This document shows positions 995 to 20,804 of a stretch of DNA of 30,727 bases, piece after piece. Under the pieces are notes generated by a model. It was not told the origin of the DNA and ran no database searches. It was given only the letters and a program-made list of their open reading frames with translations. Source of the DNA: a virus; the UHGV virus genome UHGV-0157886, one strand, 5' to 3'. Each line of letters opens with the position of its first letter. Position 1 is the first letter of the stretch. A program made the position numbers and the translations under genes.

Positions 995-1014
995 TACTGT
1001 ATAAATATACAGTT
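995..1014. promoter_or_regulatory. LexA (SOS) box overlapping a promoter
   Basis: TACTGTATAAATATACAGTT matches the E. coli LexA consensus TACTGTATATATATACAGTA at 18 of 20 positions, with CTGT-N8-ACAG intact. TTGATA at 991-996 is a possible -35. Lies 20 bp upstream of the ORF at 1034. Confidence 0.7.
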
Positions 1015-1033: not shown

Positions 1034-1291
1034 ATGCAGCAGTATCACTATCCACTGGAAGACGGATTTACCGAAAGGATCCACACGCCGGGAGGCGTCA
1101 GGTCACTGGTGGAGGGATCGCACTTGATGAAATTACTCCGGGATCTCGATAAGGATGGATTTAATGTCGATGGCCCACTTGCCGAACTGACTGCACTGAT
1201 TAACTACGTCACCAGCTCACAGATGTCTATGCGGGATCTGCAAACACATCTCGACTATTGTGCCGAACAATTACGAAAACAAACCACATAA
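1034..1291 (+). CDS. Small soluble protein (85 aa) under the LexA box; candidate SOS-induced antirepressor
   Basis: ATG at 1034 with GGAGA 8 nt upstream (the ORF-track start at 1016 is a TTG). Plus strand, convergent with the virion operon. Acidic/charged 85-aa product, no TM segment. Function is inferred from context only. Confidence 0.5.
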   Translation: MQQYHYPLEDGFTERIHTPGGVRSLVEGSHLMKLLRDLDKDGFNVDGPLAELTALINYVTSSQMSMRDLQTHLDYCAEQLRKQTT

Positions 1292-1297
1292 AGAAAA

Positions 1298-1313
1298 GGC
1301 CGCGAAAGCGGCC
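1298..1313. terminator. GC hairpin GGCCGC-GAAA-GCGGCC between convergent genes; probable bidirectional intrinsic terminator
   Basis: Perfect 6-bp GC stem with GAAA loop. The minus-strand transcript would be followed by UUUUCUUUA (rc of 1289-1297); the plus-strand U-tract is weaker. Confidence 0.5.
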
Positions 1314-1314
1314 T

Positions 1315-1326
1315 GTGACATGTCAC
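1315..1326. repeat. Perfect 12-bp palindrome GTGACATGTCAC, copy A
   Basis: Identical 12-mer also at 18528-18539 and 20793-20804. Overlaps the stop codon of the 98-aa membrane ORF. Confidence 0.8.
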
Positions 1327-1619
1327 GTTCCTTTTCTGAATGATAGCCGTTCGAAAAATGATGACATTCCACCGCAGACAATAGCAAAGATGATCCCACC
1401 AAAGAAGAGAAGGCCAGCCTGCCACCACTCCCACCGCCATACATCCACAGCACCAACCATACCAACAATCGCTCCAACAAATGGAATATAGCTCACGATG
1501 AAAGCAATGGGGGCTGCAATTATCCAGTGCAATCCCCACCATGATTCAAGCCCAGCCATAATTGCTGCCAACTGAAAAAGACCAACGACGATATAAACAA
1601 TGAATCCTATAGCTTGCAT
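1323..1619 (-). CDS. Small integral membrane protein (98 aa, 3-4 predicted TM helices); holin-like or membrane moron candidate
   Basis: Strongly hydrophobic translation (MQAIGFIVYIVVGLFQLAAIMAGL...). ATG 11 nt after the stop of the preceding small ORF. Followed by the terminator hairpin. Confidence 0.55.
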   Translation of the reverse strand: MQAIGFIVYIVVGLFQLAAIMAGLESWWGLHWIIAAPIAFIVSYIPFVGAIVGMVGAVDVWRWEWWQAGLLFFGGIIFAIVCGGMSSFFERLSFRKGT

Positions 1620-1631
1620 GTAGTCACCTAT

Positions 1632-1805
1632 TTACCCAGTAAAAATCAGAGGCCTCCCCTCAATAAGGCTTGCAACAAGAACTATTCCCTGCACAACAAA
1701 GATGAACCAGCAAATAGCTTGAGTCTGAGGGTTAAGAAAATATTTGTAGCGGTCAATAAATAACAACCCACCAGAAATTATCACACTCAAAATAATTAAA
1801 AACAC
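1632..1805 (-). CDS. Small membrane peptide (57 aa, 2 hydrophobic segments), GTG start; not in the ORF track
   Basis: My translation of the minus strand: GTG at 1805 preceded by AAGGAAG (rc of 1810-1816), open to TAA at 1634-1632. Product (M)FLIILSVIISGGLLFIDRYKYFLNPQTQAICWFIFVVQGIVLVASLIEGRPLIFTG. Below the 60-aa track cutoff. Confidence 0.35.
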   Translation of the reverse strand: MFLIILSVIISGGLLFIDRYKYFLNPQTQAICWFIFVVQGIVLVASLIEGRPLIFTG

Positions 1806-1814
1806 AACACTTCC

Positions 1815-4289
1815 TTATTGCGGAGTGACATCCTGAGGTCGCCACCAGTATGTCTGATTAAACTCTTTCTTCGAACGTTGCTCCATTTTACGCAAATAGC
1901 CTGGTGAAAAATACTCCTGCATCTGGTTAAAGATCATATGATCGAGAGCCGCCTTTAAGTACCAGAGATTCGCACCTGGCATCAAACCTTTCCCCAGCTT
2001 CACCAGATCACCACCAGTCTGCTCACTCTTCCCTTCCACAGCATTTAACGGTATGCCCTGAGCAATCTTCACTACGTCATCAACCAGACCAGCTACCGGG
2101 CCAAGCATCGACGCCAGCGCGCCGCTTCCGTACCTAGTGTGATCTGACAATAAAAAGTCACCGTAAAGGCCAAGACCACCACCTTTCAGTAGAGCACCAA
2201 GCCAAAATTTAGCAGCATCTTCTCCTGTCATCTCGCGAGGATTACGACCAGACGCAAGGTCGTTAAGTTGCTGCGACAAAGCGCCAAGAATGGTCGTACT
2301 GGCAATAAACGTCGCAATATATGCCGCACGCCCACCAGCAGACGGCATACCCATAGCGCGTGACCAGTGACGCATAACCACCGAGATAGGGAACGATTTA
2401 AACAGGAAAACACTTCTCGTTAATTCACCTTTCCATGTTCCACGCTGAATACCAGAACCGGTTATCAGTTGCTCACGTGCTCCCGGTGTAATAACAGCCA
2501 TATCAACTTCTTCAGTTACGGCACCGAGCAGTTTACGCATTGCCTCAAATTTCACGCGTTCAGGCTCACCAAGATGTTTAACTGCTGAATCAGGGATACG
2601 CATAATGCTTTCCGGTGTCAGCATCGTATTATTGCCGTTCCCCCAGTCCTCCTGTTGCGCCAGCTTCCATACGCTCCAGTCTGTGTCAGTAATCCCTTTG
2701 CTTTTCAGGATACGAAAATCAGAATTATCGAGGCTACGAAGGTCTGGTGTCCGTGACACTACTTCTCCCAGGCTTCCAATCATGGTTACGCCATAGGCGC
2801 GCTTGTGCGCATCTGACCATGCTGTAAGCCCACTGGCACGCATTACCGCCGTTGCCGCCCAACGAGACACAGACGGCCCCATATTATCCATCGCCCAGCG
2901 GTTAACGCTGCCAAGTAGAGATTCCATCGCCAGACCAGCGCGGCGCGCCCGCGCAAGTTCTGTACGGTTCGTTGGGTCCATAGCTTCAAGCTGGTTGCGG
3001 AATAACTGGTTCATTGGAAGGTTGGTAACCTTCGCAGACAGATACATGGTTCCAAGATCAGAGAACGATGACAGCAACGCGGATCCGAGTCTGCTGGCAA
3101 CCAGCCAGTTGCGGATATTGTCAGACCATCGCGCGATGTGCGGATTCGCTACAGGCTGTGTCTTTCCGGAAATAAAGTTGTACAGATTCTCTGTGTTGTT
3201 CGCCAGCCGCTCGACTTTACCGGTTTTACTCGGGTTAGCTGTTGCCGTTTCTGCCTTCACCTGATCAAGAAGAGAGCGGAAAACATGATCGGGGTTTGGG
3301 CCATATGTTTCCACCAGTGCAATATCTTTACTGATACCTTCAAGGTGACCGACCATGATTTCCCATAGAGAGCGATCGCCATAAAGTTGCTGATATTGCA
3401 GATAGGAATCTGCATCTTTGAAATGTATCTGTCGTGATGCATTACCACGGTTAGCACGTGCGCCGGAAATTCGCATTCCGGTATCAGTAAGCTTATTCAG
3501 CCCACCAGTAGCGATCGTGTTATAAGCCTCTCCAAGAAATGCAGACAACTCGGCATCGTTCATCAGTTGTCCATCGGCTCGGGTATAATATTTGCGATCC
3601 AGCTTACCTATAACATCGCTAACCCATTTATCTTTTGATACCGCCCCAACCTTTTCCATAGAATGATGTTGAGGGATCCCCCAGTTTTCGAGATAGCCAA
3701 TGTCCCCACCAGCATCATTAAACCGGCGGCGCAGCAGCTCTGTAACTTCTCTCCACGCCTTAGCACCTTTTCTTGCTTTAGCATTGCCAGTATTTTGCCC
3801 TCGCATTTCATATACCAGATCACGCACGCCAGCTTCATCTTCAAACAGGCCAAAAAAGCGAGGATCAACTGCTTCAAATGCCTCCTGCAATTGACTCAAT
3901 GCATAATCACGAGTGGCTTTTGTTCTGGACTCAACAGAGAGGAAATTCGATTTACCGTCTGCATTAAAAGCAATAGTACGGTTAAGAGCGCCAAGTTTCC
4001 CATCAGCCCCTTGATAGCTATTGATAAATTTATCCAATCTCTGACGTGCGGCTATAGTGAGGGCCACACGACGTTTCTTTAATGCCGCTTCTCGCTGTAA
4101 TTCTTCAGATGCCAATTGTGCTGCTCGATATAGCCGCTCTGATTCGGAAAGTTGTCTCCACGACATCGGGTCATCACGAGCAATGGAGCGCATATTTCGA
4201 TAAATGCGGTCTTCAATGTTCTGTATTTCTCGCGCCGTTAACGTGCGCTGCGCCGCCTGCTGAACCGCTTGTATACATTCCTGTCTCAT
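1815..4289 (-). CDS. Internal virion / ejection protein (824 aa), T7 gp15/gp16-class by position
   Basis: Large ORF in a translationally coupled chain after the tail tubular genes. GAGAGG 9 nt upstream of the ATG at 4289. No family recognised from sequence alone. Confidence 0.55.
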   Translation of the reverse strand: MRQECIQAVQQAAQRTLTAREIQNIEDRIYRNMRSIARDDPMSWRQLSESERLYRAAQLASEELQREAALKKRRVALTIAARQRLDKFINSYQGADGKLGALNRTIAFNADGKSNFLSVESRTKATRDYALSQLQEAFEAVDPRFFGLFEDEAGVRDLVYEMRGQNTGNAKARKGAKAWREVTELLRRRFNDAGGDIGYLENWGIPQHHSMEKVGAVSKDKWVSDVIGKLDRKYYTRADGQLMNDAELSAFLGEAYNTIATGGLNKLTDTGMRISGARANRGNASRQIHFKDADSYLQYQQLYGDRSLWEIMVGHLEGISKDIALVETYGPNPDHVFRSLLDQVKAETATANPSKTGKVERLANNTENLYNFISGKTQPVANPHIARWSDNIRNWLVASRLGSALLSSFSDLGTMYLSAKVTNLPMNQLFRNQLEAMDPTNRTELARARRAGLAMESLLGSVNRWAMDNMGPSVSRWAATAVMRASGLTAWSDAHKRAYGVTMIGSLGEVVSRTPDLRSLDNSDFRILKSKGITDTDWSVWKLAQQEDWGNGNNTMLTPESIMRIPDSAVKHLGEPERVKFEAMRKLLGAVTEEVDMAVITPGAREQLITGSGIQRGTWKGELTRSVFLFKSFPISVVMRHWSRAMGMPSAGGRAAYIATFIASTTILGALSQQLNDLASGRNPREMTGEDAAKFWLGALLKGGGLGLYGDFLLSDHTRYGSGALASMLGPVAGLVDDVVKIAQGIPLNAVEGKSEQTGGDLVKLGKGLMPGANLWYLKAALDHMIFNQMQEYFSPGYLRKMEQRSKKEFNQTYWWRPQDVTPQ

Positions 4290-15599: not shown

Positions 15600-15896
15600 T
15601 CACTCCTGTTCACTGGCCTCTTTGGCCATCTTCAAATACTGTTCAGGGCAATGCGCCATAACGCGCTGAAACAGTTCCAGCGCCAGATTGCGTTGCCCCT
15701 CATTAAATGCCATTGCCATAGCATCCATCGGAGAGATAGCGGAAAACACCCGGCCTTTCTCCAGCACAGACCAGACAACGCGACGCCCCTGTTCACTGCT
15801 CATGACAAAGCGAATGTCATCAATTTCACGCTGTGCCATGTCACGTTGCTTACGGGCGTTTTCTTCTTTCAGTTGATCGTCTTCGTAATCTGTCAT
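15600..15896 (-). CDS. Hypothetical head-assembly protein (98 aa) between portal and scaffold
   Basis: Start overlaps the portal stop (ATGA at 15893-15896). Charged helical translation. Confidence 0.45.
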   Translation of the reverse strand: MTDYEDDQLKEENARKQRDMAQREIDDIRFVMSSEQGRRVVWSVLEKGRVFSAISPMDAMAMAFNEGQRNLALELFQRVMAHCPEQYLKMAKEASEQE

Positions 15897-18527: not shown

Positions 18528-18539
18528 GTGACATGTCAC
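18528..18539. repeat. Perfect 12-bp palindrome GTGACATGTCAC, copy B
   Basis: Identical to copies at 1315-1326 and 20793-20804. Lies just downstream of the large terminase stop. Confidence 0.8.
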
Positions 18540-20792: not shown

Positions 20793-20804
20793 GTGACATG
20801 TCAC
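20793..20804. repeat. Perfect 12-bp palindrome GTGACATGTCAC, copy C
   Basis: Identical to copies A and B. Overlaps the stop codon of the 115-aa ORF upstream of the packaging operon. Confidence 0.8.

What the first reader, a model, noticed from the sequence alone, without database searches (positions are those of the whole stretch)
1323..1805. Two translationally linked small membrane proteins between the ejection-protein genes and the tail fibre gene
A 57-aa two-TM peptide (1632-1805, GTG start, SD overlapping the upstream stop) is followed 11 nt later by a 98-aa multi-TM protein (1323-1619), then a terminator. They are unlike the large soluble virion proteins around them. Position and topology fit a holin / antiholin pair (T7 also places its holin late, near the fibre gene), but superinfection-exclusion or membrane-moron functions are equally possible. 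They would be antisense targets of the LexA-controlled transcript if it read through.
Basis: inference. Interest (0 to 1): 0.4.

Follow-up and report, generated by a model that had tools for sequence, protein, structure and literature searches.

The report
Accessory membrane-protein genes after ejection genes
Two small inner-membrane protein genes sit at the end of the DNA-ejection operon of an epsilon15/phiV10-like E. coli prophage; they are real, dispensable add-on genes, not the phage's lysis genes, and most plausibly protect the cell membrane against incoming phage DNA, though this is untested.

Summary
Both ORFs exist on the minus strand: a 57-aa two-helix protein (1632-1805, GTG start) and a 98-aa three-helix protein (1323-1619). 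A strong terminator follows at 1297-1314. Both evolve as coding genes, with dN/dS about 0.2 and 0.03.

The window is a Uetakevirus (epsilon15/phiV10-like) prophage. The holin/antiholin reading is not supported:
- The identical prophage has a complete lysis cassette (two holins, GH19 endolysin, Rz-like spanin) beyond the tail-fibre gene.
- phiV10 has a 99% identical ejection protein and carries neither gene.

The two genes are not an obligate pair. The 98-aa gene (PHROG 3075, no Pfam family, at least 745 clusters) is the usual last gene of a variable slot. That slot holds interchangeable small membrane or secreted proteins. The 98-aa gene keeps this position after ejection genes in podoviruses down to 33% identity. 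It also occurs in lysogeny modules, islands and a plasmid-like contig. No lytic phage isolate carries a detectable homologue.

My best reading is that these are accessory inner-membrane proteins, most likely acting like P22 SieA or HK97 gp15 (superinfection exclusion). I found no homology to either, no own promoter and no expression data. Interest is modest.

The parts
1815..4289 (-). 824-aa internal virion / ejection protein (homologue of epsilon15 gp17 and phiV10 gp20); the last large gene of the ejection operon. Context, not part of the cassette.
   Evidence: phrog_684 'virion structural protein', E=0. 816/824 residues identical to phiV10 gp20.
1810..1817 (-). Junction: the TAA stop of the 824-aa gene (1817-1815) overlaps the Shine-Dalgarno sequence AAGGAAG (1816-1810) of p57.
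   Evidence: Read from the sequence. A Shine-Dalgarno sequence is conserved here in all variants although the start codon varies GTG/TTG/ATG.
1632..1805 (-). p57: 57-aa protein forming a two-transmembrane-helix hairpin, GTG start. It is one of several interchangeable occupants of the slot. It is unannotated in the RefSeq genomes listed.
   Evidence: ORF. Hydropathy. AlphaFold2 helices 2-20 and 26-49. Homologues in Escherichia, Citrobacter, Klebsiella, Salmonella and Enterobacter at 74-98% identity. dN/dS 0.19-0.27. No annotated feature under the match in the five RefSeq E. coli genomes listed.
1620..1631 (-). 12-nt spacer containing the p98 Shine-Dalgarno sequence AGGTGA (1629-1624). It marks the start of the p98 module.
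   Evidence: The string ATAGGTGACTAC-ATG is conserved upstream of p98 for most of the different upstream partner genes.
1323..1619 (-). p98: 98-aa protein with three transmembrane helices, predicted N-terminus out and C-terminus in, with a basic C-terminal tail. It is the usual terminal gene of the slot and belongs to PHROG 3075.
   Evidence: phrog_3075, E=5e-54, full length. No Pfam, NCBIfam or PADLOC family. AlphaFold2 pLDDT 89. dN/dS about 0.03. 745 representative clusters at E<=1e-3.
1315..1326 (.). 12-bp perfect palindrome GTGACATGTCAC. Its TGA is the p98 stop codon. It is a conserved boundary motif between the variable slot and the terminator.
   Evidence: Three exact copies and one near copy in the window against 0.08 expected. 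Conserved at this junction in phiV10, epsilon15 and the Cronobacter, Klebsiella and Salmonella prophages, whichever gene precedes it.
1287..1314 (-). Intrinsic terminator ending the ejection-operon transcript: stem GGCCGC/GCGGCC, loop TTTC, then the T-tract TTTTCTTTAT.
   Evidence: Terminator scan: 7 pairs, 6 of them GC. Annotated at the same place in phiV10 and epsilon15.
1034..1291 (+). Convergent 85-aa gene (homologue of epsilon15 gp19, phrog_450) preceded by a LexA box at 995-1014. Context for possible antisense read-through into p98 and p57.
   Evidence: phrog_450, E=1e-47; weak similarity to an anti-repressor C-terminus. LexA-box search and sequence. No plus-strand terminator flagged here.

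Best explanation
p57 and p98 are two independent accessory genes. They sit in a variable slot for envelope-targeted proteins at the 3' end of the ejection-protein operon of an epsilon15/phiV10-like temperate podovirus. Both proteins insert into the inner membrane.

Shown here: they are real genes, they are not needed for virion assembly, ejection or lysis, and they are not the lysis genes.

Inferred: they act as membrane-level immunity or superinfection-exclusion factors, in the manner of P22 SieA or HK97 gp15. In this model p98 oligomerises through its conserved small-residue motif (G49, G53, G56/A57). It then occupies or blocks the inner-membrane site or host factor that an incoming phage's ejection-protein conduit needs, so the superinfecting DNA does not cross the inner membrane. 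p57 would be an alternative or additional module of the same kind.

Expression is probably by read-through of the late operon. A weak internal promoter active in the lysogen is possible but was not found.
For: **Accessory and dispensable**
- phiV10, an isolated phage with a complete genome record, has a 99% identical ejection protein and identical flanks. It carries only an unrelated 46-aa two-helix gene in the slot.
- epsilon15 carries only the unrelated gp18.

**Independent modules**
- p98 occurs without p57 in Cronobacter, Salmonella, Yersinia and about 17 of 80 viral loci.
- p57 occurs without p98 in Klebsiella oxytoca and Salmonella.

**Every occupant of the slot is an envelope protein**
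- Two-helix peptides of 46-103 aa.
- Signal-peptide proteins of 102, 123 and 175-179 aa.
- A 107-aa lipoprotein.
- A 145-aa secreted protein on the opposite strand.

**p98 is not tied to its neighbouring ejection protein.** A 99% identical p98 lies next to ejection proteins that are only 30% identical.

**Position is deeply conserved.** p98 homologues follow the last ejection gene in podovirus contigs at 33-63% identity.

**Other contexts are positions expected to be expressed in lysogens or cargo positions**
- Directly downstream of a LexA/CI-type repressor and before the integrase, in a Pyramidobacter record filed as a plasmid that carries phage genes.
- Between regulator genes and the integrase (L130).
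- Next to an integrase.
- Islands carrying a serine recombinase.
- A plasmid-like contig.

**Found only in temperate phage records.** tblastn against 50,697 phage records gave 7 hits, all E. coli or Klebsiella records.

**Precedents**
- P22 SieA is a three-helix inner-membrane protein encoded between ejection gene 16 and tailspike gene 9. It blocks injection through gp16 and gp20 (PMC10883804).
- HK97 gp15 is a small inner-membrane exclusion protein inside the tail operon, with non-phage homologues (PMC3594210).
Against: - No sequence or profile similarity to SieA or to any PADLOC defence model.
- No sigma-70-like promoter was found upstream of p57 or p98. Both genes are co-oriented and translationally linked with the late operon, whereas P22 sieA is on the opposite strand with its own promoter. 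Expression in the lysogen is therefore undemonstrated.
- p98 is under very strong purifying selection (dN/dS about 0.03) and is more conserved than the ejection proteins. This is unlike the fast-diverging SieA types and suggests a conserved host partner or an intrinsic activity.
- Some homologues are in apparently non-mobile chromosomal contexts, for example next to umuDC-like genes.
- GC3 and codon usage barely differ from the neighbouring genes.
- No experimental data were found for any family member.
Confidence: 0.4

Rival explanations
1. A holin/antiholin pair, or an auxiliary lysis-timing regulator. p98 would be a class-I-like holin (three transmembrane helices, N-terminus out, C-terminus in, charged C-terminal tail) and p57 its partner. 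Both would be made late and would permeabilise the inner membrane.
For: The size, the three helices and the basic C-terminal tail of p98 match class I holin topology. Placement in the late operon fits. There is a weak Phage_holin_5_2 hit, E=0.027.
Against: - A complete lysis cassette lies elsewhere in the same prophage and in all relatives examined: Phage_holin_8, Phage_holin_3_7, GH19 or M15 endolysin, and Rz.
- The holin hit is 15.1 bits against a cut-off of 29.2.
- There is no profile similarity to the prophage's own holins.
- p98 and p57 are absent from phiV10 and epsilon15.
- The family occurs in islands, a plasmid-like contig, repressor-integrase modules and chromosomal sites.
- dN/dS of 0.03 and high sequence conservation are atypical for holins.
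- The two genes are not co-inherited.
Confidence: 0.05
2. A late-acting helper of the ejection machinery. In this model the proteins are small hydrophobic virion components or membrane-anchored assembly factors. They would assist packaging of the ejection proteins, or insert into the recipient inner membrane as part of the DNA conduit.
For: - Translational linkage to the last ejection gene.
- Synteny with ejection genes is conserved down to 33% identity in epsilon15-like and T7-like prophages.
- Every variant of the slot has at least one small hydrophobic or secreted protein.
Against: - phiV10 functions with a 99% identical ejection protein and no p57 or p98.
- A 99% identical p98 sits beside ejection proteins that are only 30% identical, so there is no co-variation.
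- Family members occur in non-phage elements and in lysogeny modules.
- The slot occupants are non-homologous and include secreted proteins, a lipoprotein and a gene on the opposite strand.
- No homologue was detected in any lytic podovirus record.
Confidence: 0.12
3. Another accessory membrane function unrelated to phage exclusion. Examples are inhibition or modulation of a host inner-membrane enzyme or transporter (as epsilon15 gp22 does to the O-antigen polymerase), a small channel or stress-response protein, or immunity against a membrane-damaging toxin.
For: - Uetakeviruses are known to use small two-helix peptides to inhibit host membrane enzymes (epsilon15 annotation).
- The p98 family is broad: 745 clusters, spanning Proteobacteria, Synergistota, Desulfovibrio relatives and a Thermoflexus metagenome-assembled genome.
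- It is sometimes fused to, or flanked by, DUF805, RDD and DUF6804 membrane domains.
- Very strong purifying selection suggests a conserved host target.
Against: - p57 shows no similarity to epsilon15 gp22.
- No functional annotation exists anywhere in the family.
- The repeated placement right after ejection genes has no explanation under this model.
Confidence: 0.3
4. p57 is not a translated gene. It would be a conserved spacer or regulatory sequence between the ejection gene and p98, and only p98 would be functional.
For: - PGAP does not annotate it in RefSeq genomes.
- It has a GTG or TTG start, is short, and has low GC (37%).
- A weak hairpin plus T-run lies inside its 3' end at 1669-1648.
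Against: - The reading frame is intact across Escherichia, Citrobacter, Klebsiella, Salmonella and Enterobacter at 74-98% identity, with dN/dS of 0.19-0.27 at dS of about 0.6.
- The Shine-Dalgarno sequence is preserved while the start codon changes, including ATG with AAGGAGG in Klebsiella oxytoca.
- It occurs as the first gene of the slot without p98.
- A helical hairpin is predicted with reasonable confidence.
Confidence: 0.07

Closest known systems
P22 SieA (superinfection exclusion A; Leavitt et al. 2024, PMC10883804)
   Same: It is a predicted three-helix inner-membrane protein of a temperate podovirus. It is encoded between the last ejection-protein gene and the tailspike gene. It is present in only some members of the phage group and comes in several unrelated sequence types.
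   Different: - No sequence similarity.
- 98 aa against 162-164 aa.
- p98 lacks the cytoplasmic FxRYPxEAxxFNK motif.
- sieA is on the opposite strand with its own promoter, whereas p57 and p98 are co-oriented and translationally linked to the late operon.
- The exclusion phenotype is untested here.
HK97 gp15 moron (Cumby et al. 2012; reviewed in PMC3594210)
   Same: It is a small inner-membrane protein encoded inside a virion-structure operon, next to the gene for the DNA-delivery protein. It is dispensable, and its homologues are largely outside prophages.
   Different: It belongs to an unrelated family (YebO-like). HK97 gp15 has its own promoter and terminator and is shown to be expressed from the prophage. 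For p57 and p98 only the terminator was found.
epsilon15 gp18 and phiV10 gp21 (positional counterparts)
   Same: They occupy the same slot and are small two-helix proteins of 64 and 46 aa. They are followed by the same GTGACATGTCAC motif and terminator.
   Different: They are not homologous to p57 or p98 (24% identity in a forced alignment) and belong to different PHROGs (29212 and 7892). Their function is also unknown.
Class I holins (lambda S type) and the Uetakevirus lysis cassette holins (Phage_holin_8, Phage_holin_3_7)
   Same: About 100 aa, three transmembrane helices, N-terminus out and C-terminus in, basic C-terminal tail, late expression.
   Different: p98 is not in the lysis cassette, reaches no holin profile threshold, has no dual-start motif, is highly conserved in sequence, and is present in non-phage elements.
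epsilon15 gp22 / phage D3 Iap-type small hydrophobic inhibitors of O-antigen polymerase
   Same: Small two-helix peptides of a seroconverting Uetakevirus that act on a host inner-membrane enzyme. This is a possible analogue for p57.
   Different: No similarity. gp22 lies beside the polymerase gene downstream of the tail fibre, on the opposite strand.

Membership tests
PHROG 3075 (uncharacterised phage protein family) | Full-length match to the family profile | tested here: met
   p98 residues 1-98 match profile positions 1-98 of 98, E=5.4e-54, 182 bits.
Holins (class I) | Small membrane protein with three transmembrane helices, N-terminus out and C-terminus in, and a charged C-terminus | tested here: met
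   Hydropathy, alignment and the AlphaFold2 model of p98. Topology is inferred from the positive-inside rule only.
Holins (class I) | Gene located in a lysis cassette next to endolysin and spanin genes | tested here: not met
   The lysis cassette lies after the tail-fibre gene, more than 3.5 kb away, in the identical prophage and in relatives.
Holins (class I) | Match to a curated holin family profile above threshold | tested here: not met
   The best hit is Phage_holin_5_2 at 15.1 bits against a cut-off of 29.2. hhalign against the prophage's own holins gives probability 0.2%.
Holins (class I) | Triggers membrane permeabilisation and is required for lysis | not testable with these tools
   Indirect only: phiV10 and epsilon15 lack the genes.
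P22 SieA-type superinfection exclusion | Sequence homology to SieA types A-C, including the FxRYPxEAxxFNK motif | tested here: not met
   BLASTP E=19. The motif is absent from the p98 alignment.
P22 SieA-type superinfection exclusion | Multi-pass inner-membrane protein encoded between the last ejection gene and the tailspike/fibre gene | tested here: met
P22 SieA-type superinfection exclusion | Expressed from the repressed prophage, with its own promoter | tested here: inconclusive
   The consensus scan found no promoter upstream of p57 or p98. Distant homologues do sit in repressor/integrase modules. No transcript data are available.
P22 SieA-type superinfection exclusion | Blocks DNA injection of related phages | not testable with these tools
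   Requires plating and DNA-entry assays.
Moron (Juhala/Hendrix definition) | Present in one genome and absent between the same flanking genes in a close relative | tested here: met
   phiV10 flanks are 97-99% identical while the slot content differs.
Moron (Juhala/Hendrix definition) | Own promoter and terminator | tested here: inconclusive
   The terminator is present. It is shared with the operon and conserved in all variants. No promoter was found.
Moron (Juhala/Hendrix definition) | Base composition differs from that of the neighbours | tested here: inconclusive
   p57 is 37% GC and p98 46% GC, against 49-52% for the neighbours. GC3 is 0.38 and 0.42 against 0.43-0.45, and the bias is partly explained by hydrophobic codons.

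The most novel reading that the evidence does not exclude
The p98 family is a widespread, unnamed class of three-helix inner-membrane proteins carried as cargo by temperate phages, islands and plasmids. It has at least 745 clusters at 50% identity, no Pfam model and no characterised member. Under this reading it blocks DNA entry at the inner membrane by engaging a conserved host factor or the membrane-inserting end of ejection-protein conduits.

This would explain three things: why podoviruses keep it immediately after their ejection genes down to 33% identity, why it is so strongly conserved, and why that slot collects other envelope proteins as a dedicated 'entry-immunity' hotspot.
Probability: 0.25. 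Interest if true: 0.6.

Novelty: new variant of a known kind. Interest (0 to 1): 0.3.

Why it matters
If p98 or p57 do exclude phages, they would define a new and fairly common family of inner-membrane exclusion proteins. The prophage carrying them is present in about 4% of complete E. coli genomes, including ETEC H10407 and O26 strains, and also occurs in Klebsiella and Salmonella. That is relevant to predicting phage susceptibility and to phage therapy against such lysogens.

The work also flags three other things:
- A 57-aa gene that is unannotated in the RefSeq genomes listed.
- A recombination-prone slot, bounded by a conserved palindrome, where temperate podoviruses swap envelope-protein cargo.
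- For annotation, these genes should not be labelled as holins.

Tried and rejected
**Profile libraries.** Pfam, NCBIfam and PADLOC gave no significant family for either protein. A Pfam scan of 75 diverse family members found only the fused domains DUF805, RDD and MORN.

**Structure searches.** Foldseek searches with the p98 model against PDB and BFVD gave no hit below E=1. The potassium-channel and holin hits are noise.

**Pairwise and profile comparisons.** p98 against P22 SieA, p98 against the prophage's two holins, and p57 against epsilon15 gp22 all gave nothing.

**Alternative slot occupants.** Pfam and PHROGs scans returned only 'unknown function'.

**SOS link.** Distant homologues lie near S24-peptidase and UmuDC-type genes. 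No LexA box lies within 400 nt upstream of any of 20 homologues, so I dropped this idea.

**Rfam.** Only a sub-threshold Trp_leader hit, caused by the Trp-rich codons of p98.

**Literature.**
- No paper mentions WP_001147903.
- Searches on phiV10 and Uetakevirus found nothing about these genes.
- The phiv142-3 study did not report orf12, which is p98.

**Searches that failed or yielded little.**
- The genome-contig scan found only 9 loci because the peptide pattern was narrow.
- Alignment A3 was too diverse to derive a search pattern.
- The exact-sequence look-up of P0022 failed.

**Composition.** Compositional evidence for horizontal acquisition was weak.
Full report
**What is there**

On the minus strand, the 824-aa gene (1815-4289) ends with TAA at 1817-1815. 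The Shine-Dalgarno sequence AAGGAAG overlaps that stop. A GTG at 1805 opens a 57-codon ORF, p57 (1632-1805). Twelve bases later, behind AGGTGA, an ATG at 1619 opens a 98-codon ORF, p98 (1323-1619).

A strong intrinsic terminator follows at 1314-1297, with a 7-bp stem, 6 GC pairs and a T-tract.

- p57 is a helical hairpin: hydrophobic stretches at 2-17 and 30-48, and AlphaFold2 helices at 2-20 and 26-49.
- p98 has three membrane helices: 2-28, 32-59 (kinked at the invariant Pro46) and 65-97, with pLDDT 89. It has a Trp-rich loop (WxWEWWQA) and a basic C-terminal tail. The positive-inside rule predicts N-terminus out and C-terminus in.

**Are they genes?**

Yes, for both.

- Relatives with synonymous divergence of 1.6-2.1 give dN/dS of about 0.03 for p98.
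- Relatives with dS of about 0.6 give dN/dS of 0.19-0.27 for p57.
- The p57 start codon is GTG, TTG or ATG in different lineages, but a Shine-Dalgarno sequence is always kept. Klebsiella oxytoca has AAGGAGG followed by ATG.
- p57 homologues occur in Escherichia, Citrobacter, Klebsiella, Salmonella and Enterobacter.
- p98 homologues extend to Cronobacter, Yersinia, Dickeya, Kosakonia and beyond.
- p98 is in 216 and p57 in 205 of 5426 complete E. coli genomes. In the five RefSeq genomes listed for p57, which include ETEC H10407, no feature is annotated over it.

**Genomic setting**

The window is an epsilon15/phiV10-like (Uetakevirus) prophage. The 1-kb region is 100% identical to E. coli NZ_AP027844.1 and is related to phiV10, phiv142-3, HEMP4 and others.

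The 824-aa protein is the homologue of epsilon15 gp17 and phiV10 gp20, the last internal virion or ejection protein.

Downstream on the plus strand, the convergent 85-aa gp19-like gene (1034-1291) is preceded by a near-consensus LexA box at 995-1014. The tail-fibre gene starts at 838 on the minus strand and runs off the window.

**Holin/antiholin is not supported**

- In the identical prophage, the lysis cassette lies after the tail-fibre gene, outside the window. It comprises a putative holin, a phage holin family protein, a GH19 endolysin and a DUF2514 Rz-like protein.
- epsilon15 and the Cronobacter, Salmonella and Yersinia relatives have equivalent cassettes away from the slot.
- p98 has no profile similarity to those holins.
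- Its only holin-profile hit is 15.1 bits against a 29.2-bit cut-off.
- phiV10 has an ejection protein 816/824 identical to the one here, and it carries neither p57 nor p98. epsilon15 lacks both as well. The genes are therefore dispensable for assembly, ejection and lysis.

**A variable slot, not a pair**

I compared about 100 related loci. The stretch between the last ejection gene and the terminator holds one to three small genes in many combinations:

| Slot content | Where seen |
|---|---|
| p57 + p98 | most E. coli loci |
| p98 alone | Cronobacter, a T7-like Salmonella prophage, L181 |
| p57 alone, or with another two-helix ORF | Klebsiella oxytoca |
| p57 + a gp18-like gene | Salmonella |
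| p57 + a 93-aa membrane protein + p98 | Salmonella |
| 103-aa two-helix protein + p98 | viral contigs |
| 102- or 123-aa signal-peptide protein + p98 | viral contigs |
| 175-179-aa secreted protein before or after p98 | viral contigs |
| 107-aa lipoprotein + p98 | viral contig |
| 145-aa secreted protein on the opposite strand, then p98 | Yersinia |
| only an unrelated two-helix peptide | phiV10, epsilon15 |

Every occupant is membrane-bound or exported, and none has a known function. Where p98 is present, it is almost always the last gene of the slot; in L132 a 179-aa secreted-protein gene follows it. In most loci the p98 module begins with the conserved string ATAGGTGACTAC-ATG, across several different upstream partner genes.

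The slot ends at a 12-bp perfect palindrome, GTGACATGTCAC. Its TGA often serves as the stop codon. It is conserved from epsilon15 to the Cronobacter prophages.

A 99% identical p98 sits beside ejection proteins that are only 30% identical in their C-terminal 150 residues (L052 against the window). p98 therefore does not co-vary with its neighbour.

**The p98 family**

- It is PHROG 3075, function unknown.
- No Pfam, NCBIfam or PADLOC model covers it.
- Structure searches found nothing.
- A profile search of 1.84 billion representative proteins found 745 clusters at E<=1e-3, of which 318 are at E<=1e-10. Most are stand-alone proteins of about 100 aa. A few are fused to DUF805, RDD or MORN domains.

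The family occurs in two kinds of context.

*After the last ejection gene in temperate podoviruses.* This position holds at 33-63% identity in both epsilon15-like and T7-like prophage architectures, sometimes with overlapping stop and start codons.

*At lysogeny-module or cargo positions in other elements:*
- Immediately downstream of a LexA/CI-type repressor and upstream of the integrase, in a Pyramidobacter record that PLSDB files as a plasmid but that carries phage genes.
- Between regulator genes and the integrase, in L130.
- Beside an integrase.
- On an island inserted in comM that carries a serine recombinase.
- On a plasmid-like contig.
- Flanked by DUF6804-like and DUF805-like small membrane proteins.
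- Near umuDC-type genes.

tblastn against 50,697 phage records found p98 in only seven. All are E. coli or Klebsiella records, and those examined have Uetakevirus-type gene content. The plasmid hit that was opened (Klebsiella pRJBSI76-3) proved to be the same kind of prophage carried on a plasmid, and the remaining E. coli and Klebsiella plasmid hits are near-identical copies whose context was not checked; the Pyramidobacter record is the exception.

**Interpretation**

*Shown:*
- The genes are real and encode small inner-membrane proteins.
- They are accessory and modular.
- They are not the lysis genes.
- They are not required by nearly identical ejection proteins.

*Inferred:* they have an envelope-level accessory function.

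The best precedent is P22 SieA. It is a three-helix inner-membrane protein encoded between ejection gene 16 and tailspike gene 9, and it blocks DNA injection through gp16 and gp20. [quoted passage not shown] A second precedent is HK97 gp15. This small inner-membrane exclusion protein is embedded in the tail operon next to the tape-measure gene, and its homologues lie mostly outside prophages (PMC3594210).

I therefore favour superinfection exclusion or entry immunity at the inner membrane, with a probability of about 0.4. p98 would be a conserved module acting on a conserved host factor or membrane site, and p57 would be one of several swappable companions.

**Caveats**

- There is no homology to SieA.
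- No promoter was detected, and both genes are co-oriented and translationally linked with the late operon. P22 sieA is on the opposite strand with its own promoter.
- Purifying selection on p98 is unusually strong for a protein in an arms race.
- Some homologues lie in contexts that do not look mobile.
- No experiment exists for any family member.

**Rivals**

| Rival | Probability |
|---|---|
| Another host-membrane modulating function (Iap-like inhibition, channel or stress function, toxin immunity) | about 0.3 |
| A non-essential helper of the ejection machinery | about 0.12 |
| p57 is untranslated | about 0.07 |
| A holin/antiholin pair | about 0.05 |

**Verdict**

The holin idea is rejected, and the exclusion or moron alternative is retained as a hypothesis. 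This is an ordinary kind of prophage cargo, but it belongs to a sizeable, uncharacterised family with a conserved position. Interest is modest, at 0.3.

Noticed in passing
window 1315-1326, 18528-18539, 20793-20804; one mismatch at 15833-15844: The 12-bp perfect palindrome GTGACATGTCAC occurs three times exactly and once nearly, against 0.08 expected. The three exact copies lie at operon or module junctions. At 1315 and 20793 its TGA is the stop codon of the upstream ORF. At 18528 it directly follows a terminator hairpin. It is conserved at the slot boundary in phiV10, epsilon15 and the Cronobacter, Klebsiella and Salmonella prophages. It is a candidate regulator-binding site or recombination boundary.
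   Followed up: partly
window 995-1014 and 924-939; gene 1034-1291 (+): A near-consensus LexA box (TACTGTATAAATATACAGTT) and a second weaker CTGT-N8-ACAG site lie upstream of the 85-aa gp19-like gene. That gene belongs to phrog_450 and shows weak similarity to an anti-repressor C-terminus. It looks like an SOS-controlled small antirepressor module. No plus-strand terminator was flagged at its end, so its transcript could read antisense into p98 and p57.
   Followed up: partly
window 1632-1805 (-): p57 has no annotated feature under the match in the five RefSeq complete E. coli genomes listed for it, including ETEC H10407. It is conserved across five genera and under purifying selection.
   Followed up: yes
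L091 5461-5988, L132 9191-9730, L146 5453-5983; L222 1564-1887; L052 5621-5992; L112 6539-6976(-): The same slot in related prophages carries recurring families of exported proteins. These are a 175-179-aa signal-peptide protein before or after p98, a 107-aa lipoprotein, 102- and 123-aa periplasmic proteins, and an AT-rich 145-aa secreted protein on the opposite strand. All are of unknown function.
   Followed up: partly
L095, L105, L107, L130, L214, L227 (around the p98 homologue): In non-podovirus elements the p98 homologue is flanked by DUF6804-like and DUF805-like small membrane proteins. This matches the DUF805 fusions seen among the representative clusters and suggests a recurring trio of small membrane proteins.
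   Followed up: no
L109 4146-6285; L236 7001-10417; L115 4226-5252: Distant p98 homologues lie next to S24-peptidase genes three times: after umuDC, before an SRAP-S24-IMS operon, and after a LexA/CI-like repressor. No gamma-proteobacterial-type LexA box was found upstream of any homologue.
   Followed up: partly
window 1648-1669 (-): A weak hairpin followed by a T-run (AGGGGAGGCCTCT GATTTTT) lies inside the 3' end of p57, just before p98. It could attenuate transcription into p98, or it could be a by-product of the conserved EGRPLIF codons.
   Followed up: no
L005-L007 8362-8820; L114 5870-6328: In the Cronobacter and Klebsiella relatives, a HicA/DUF1902 (HicB-like) toxin-antitoxin pair and a Bro-N antirepressor sit right after the p98 terminator. 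The whole region between the ejection genes and the tail fibre is therefore an accessory-gene hotspot.
   Followed up: no
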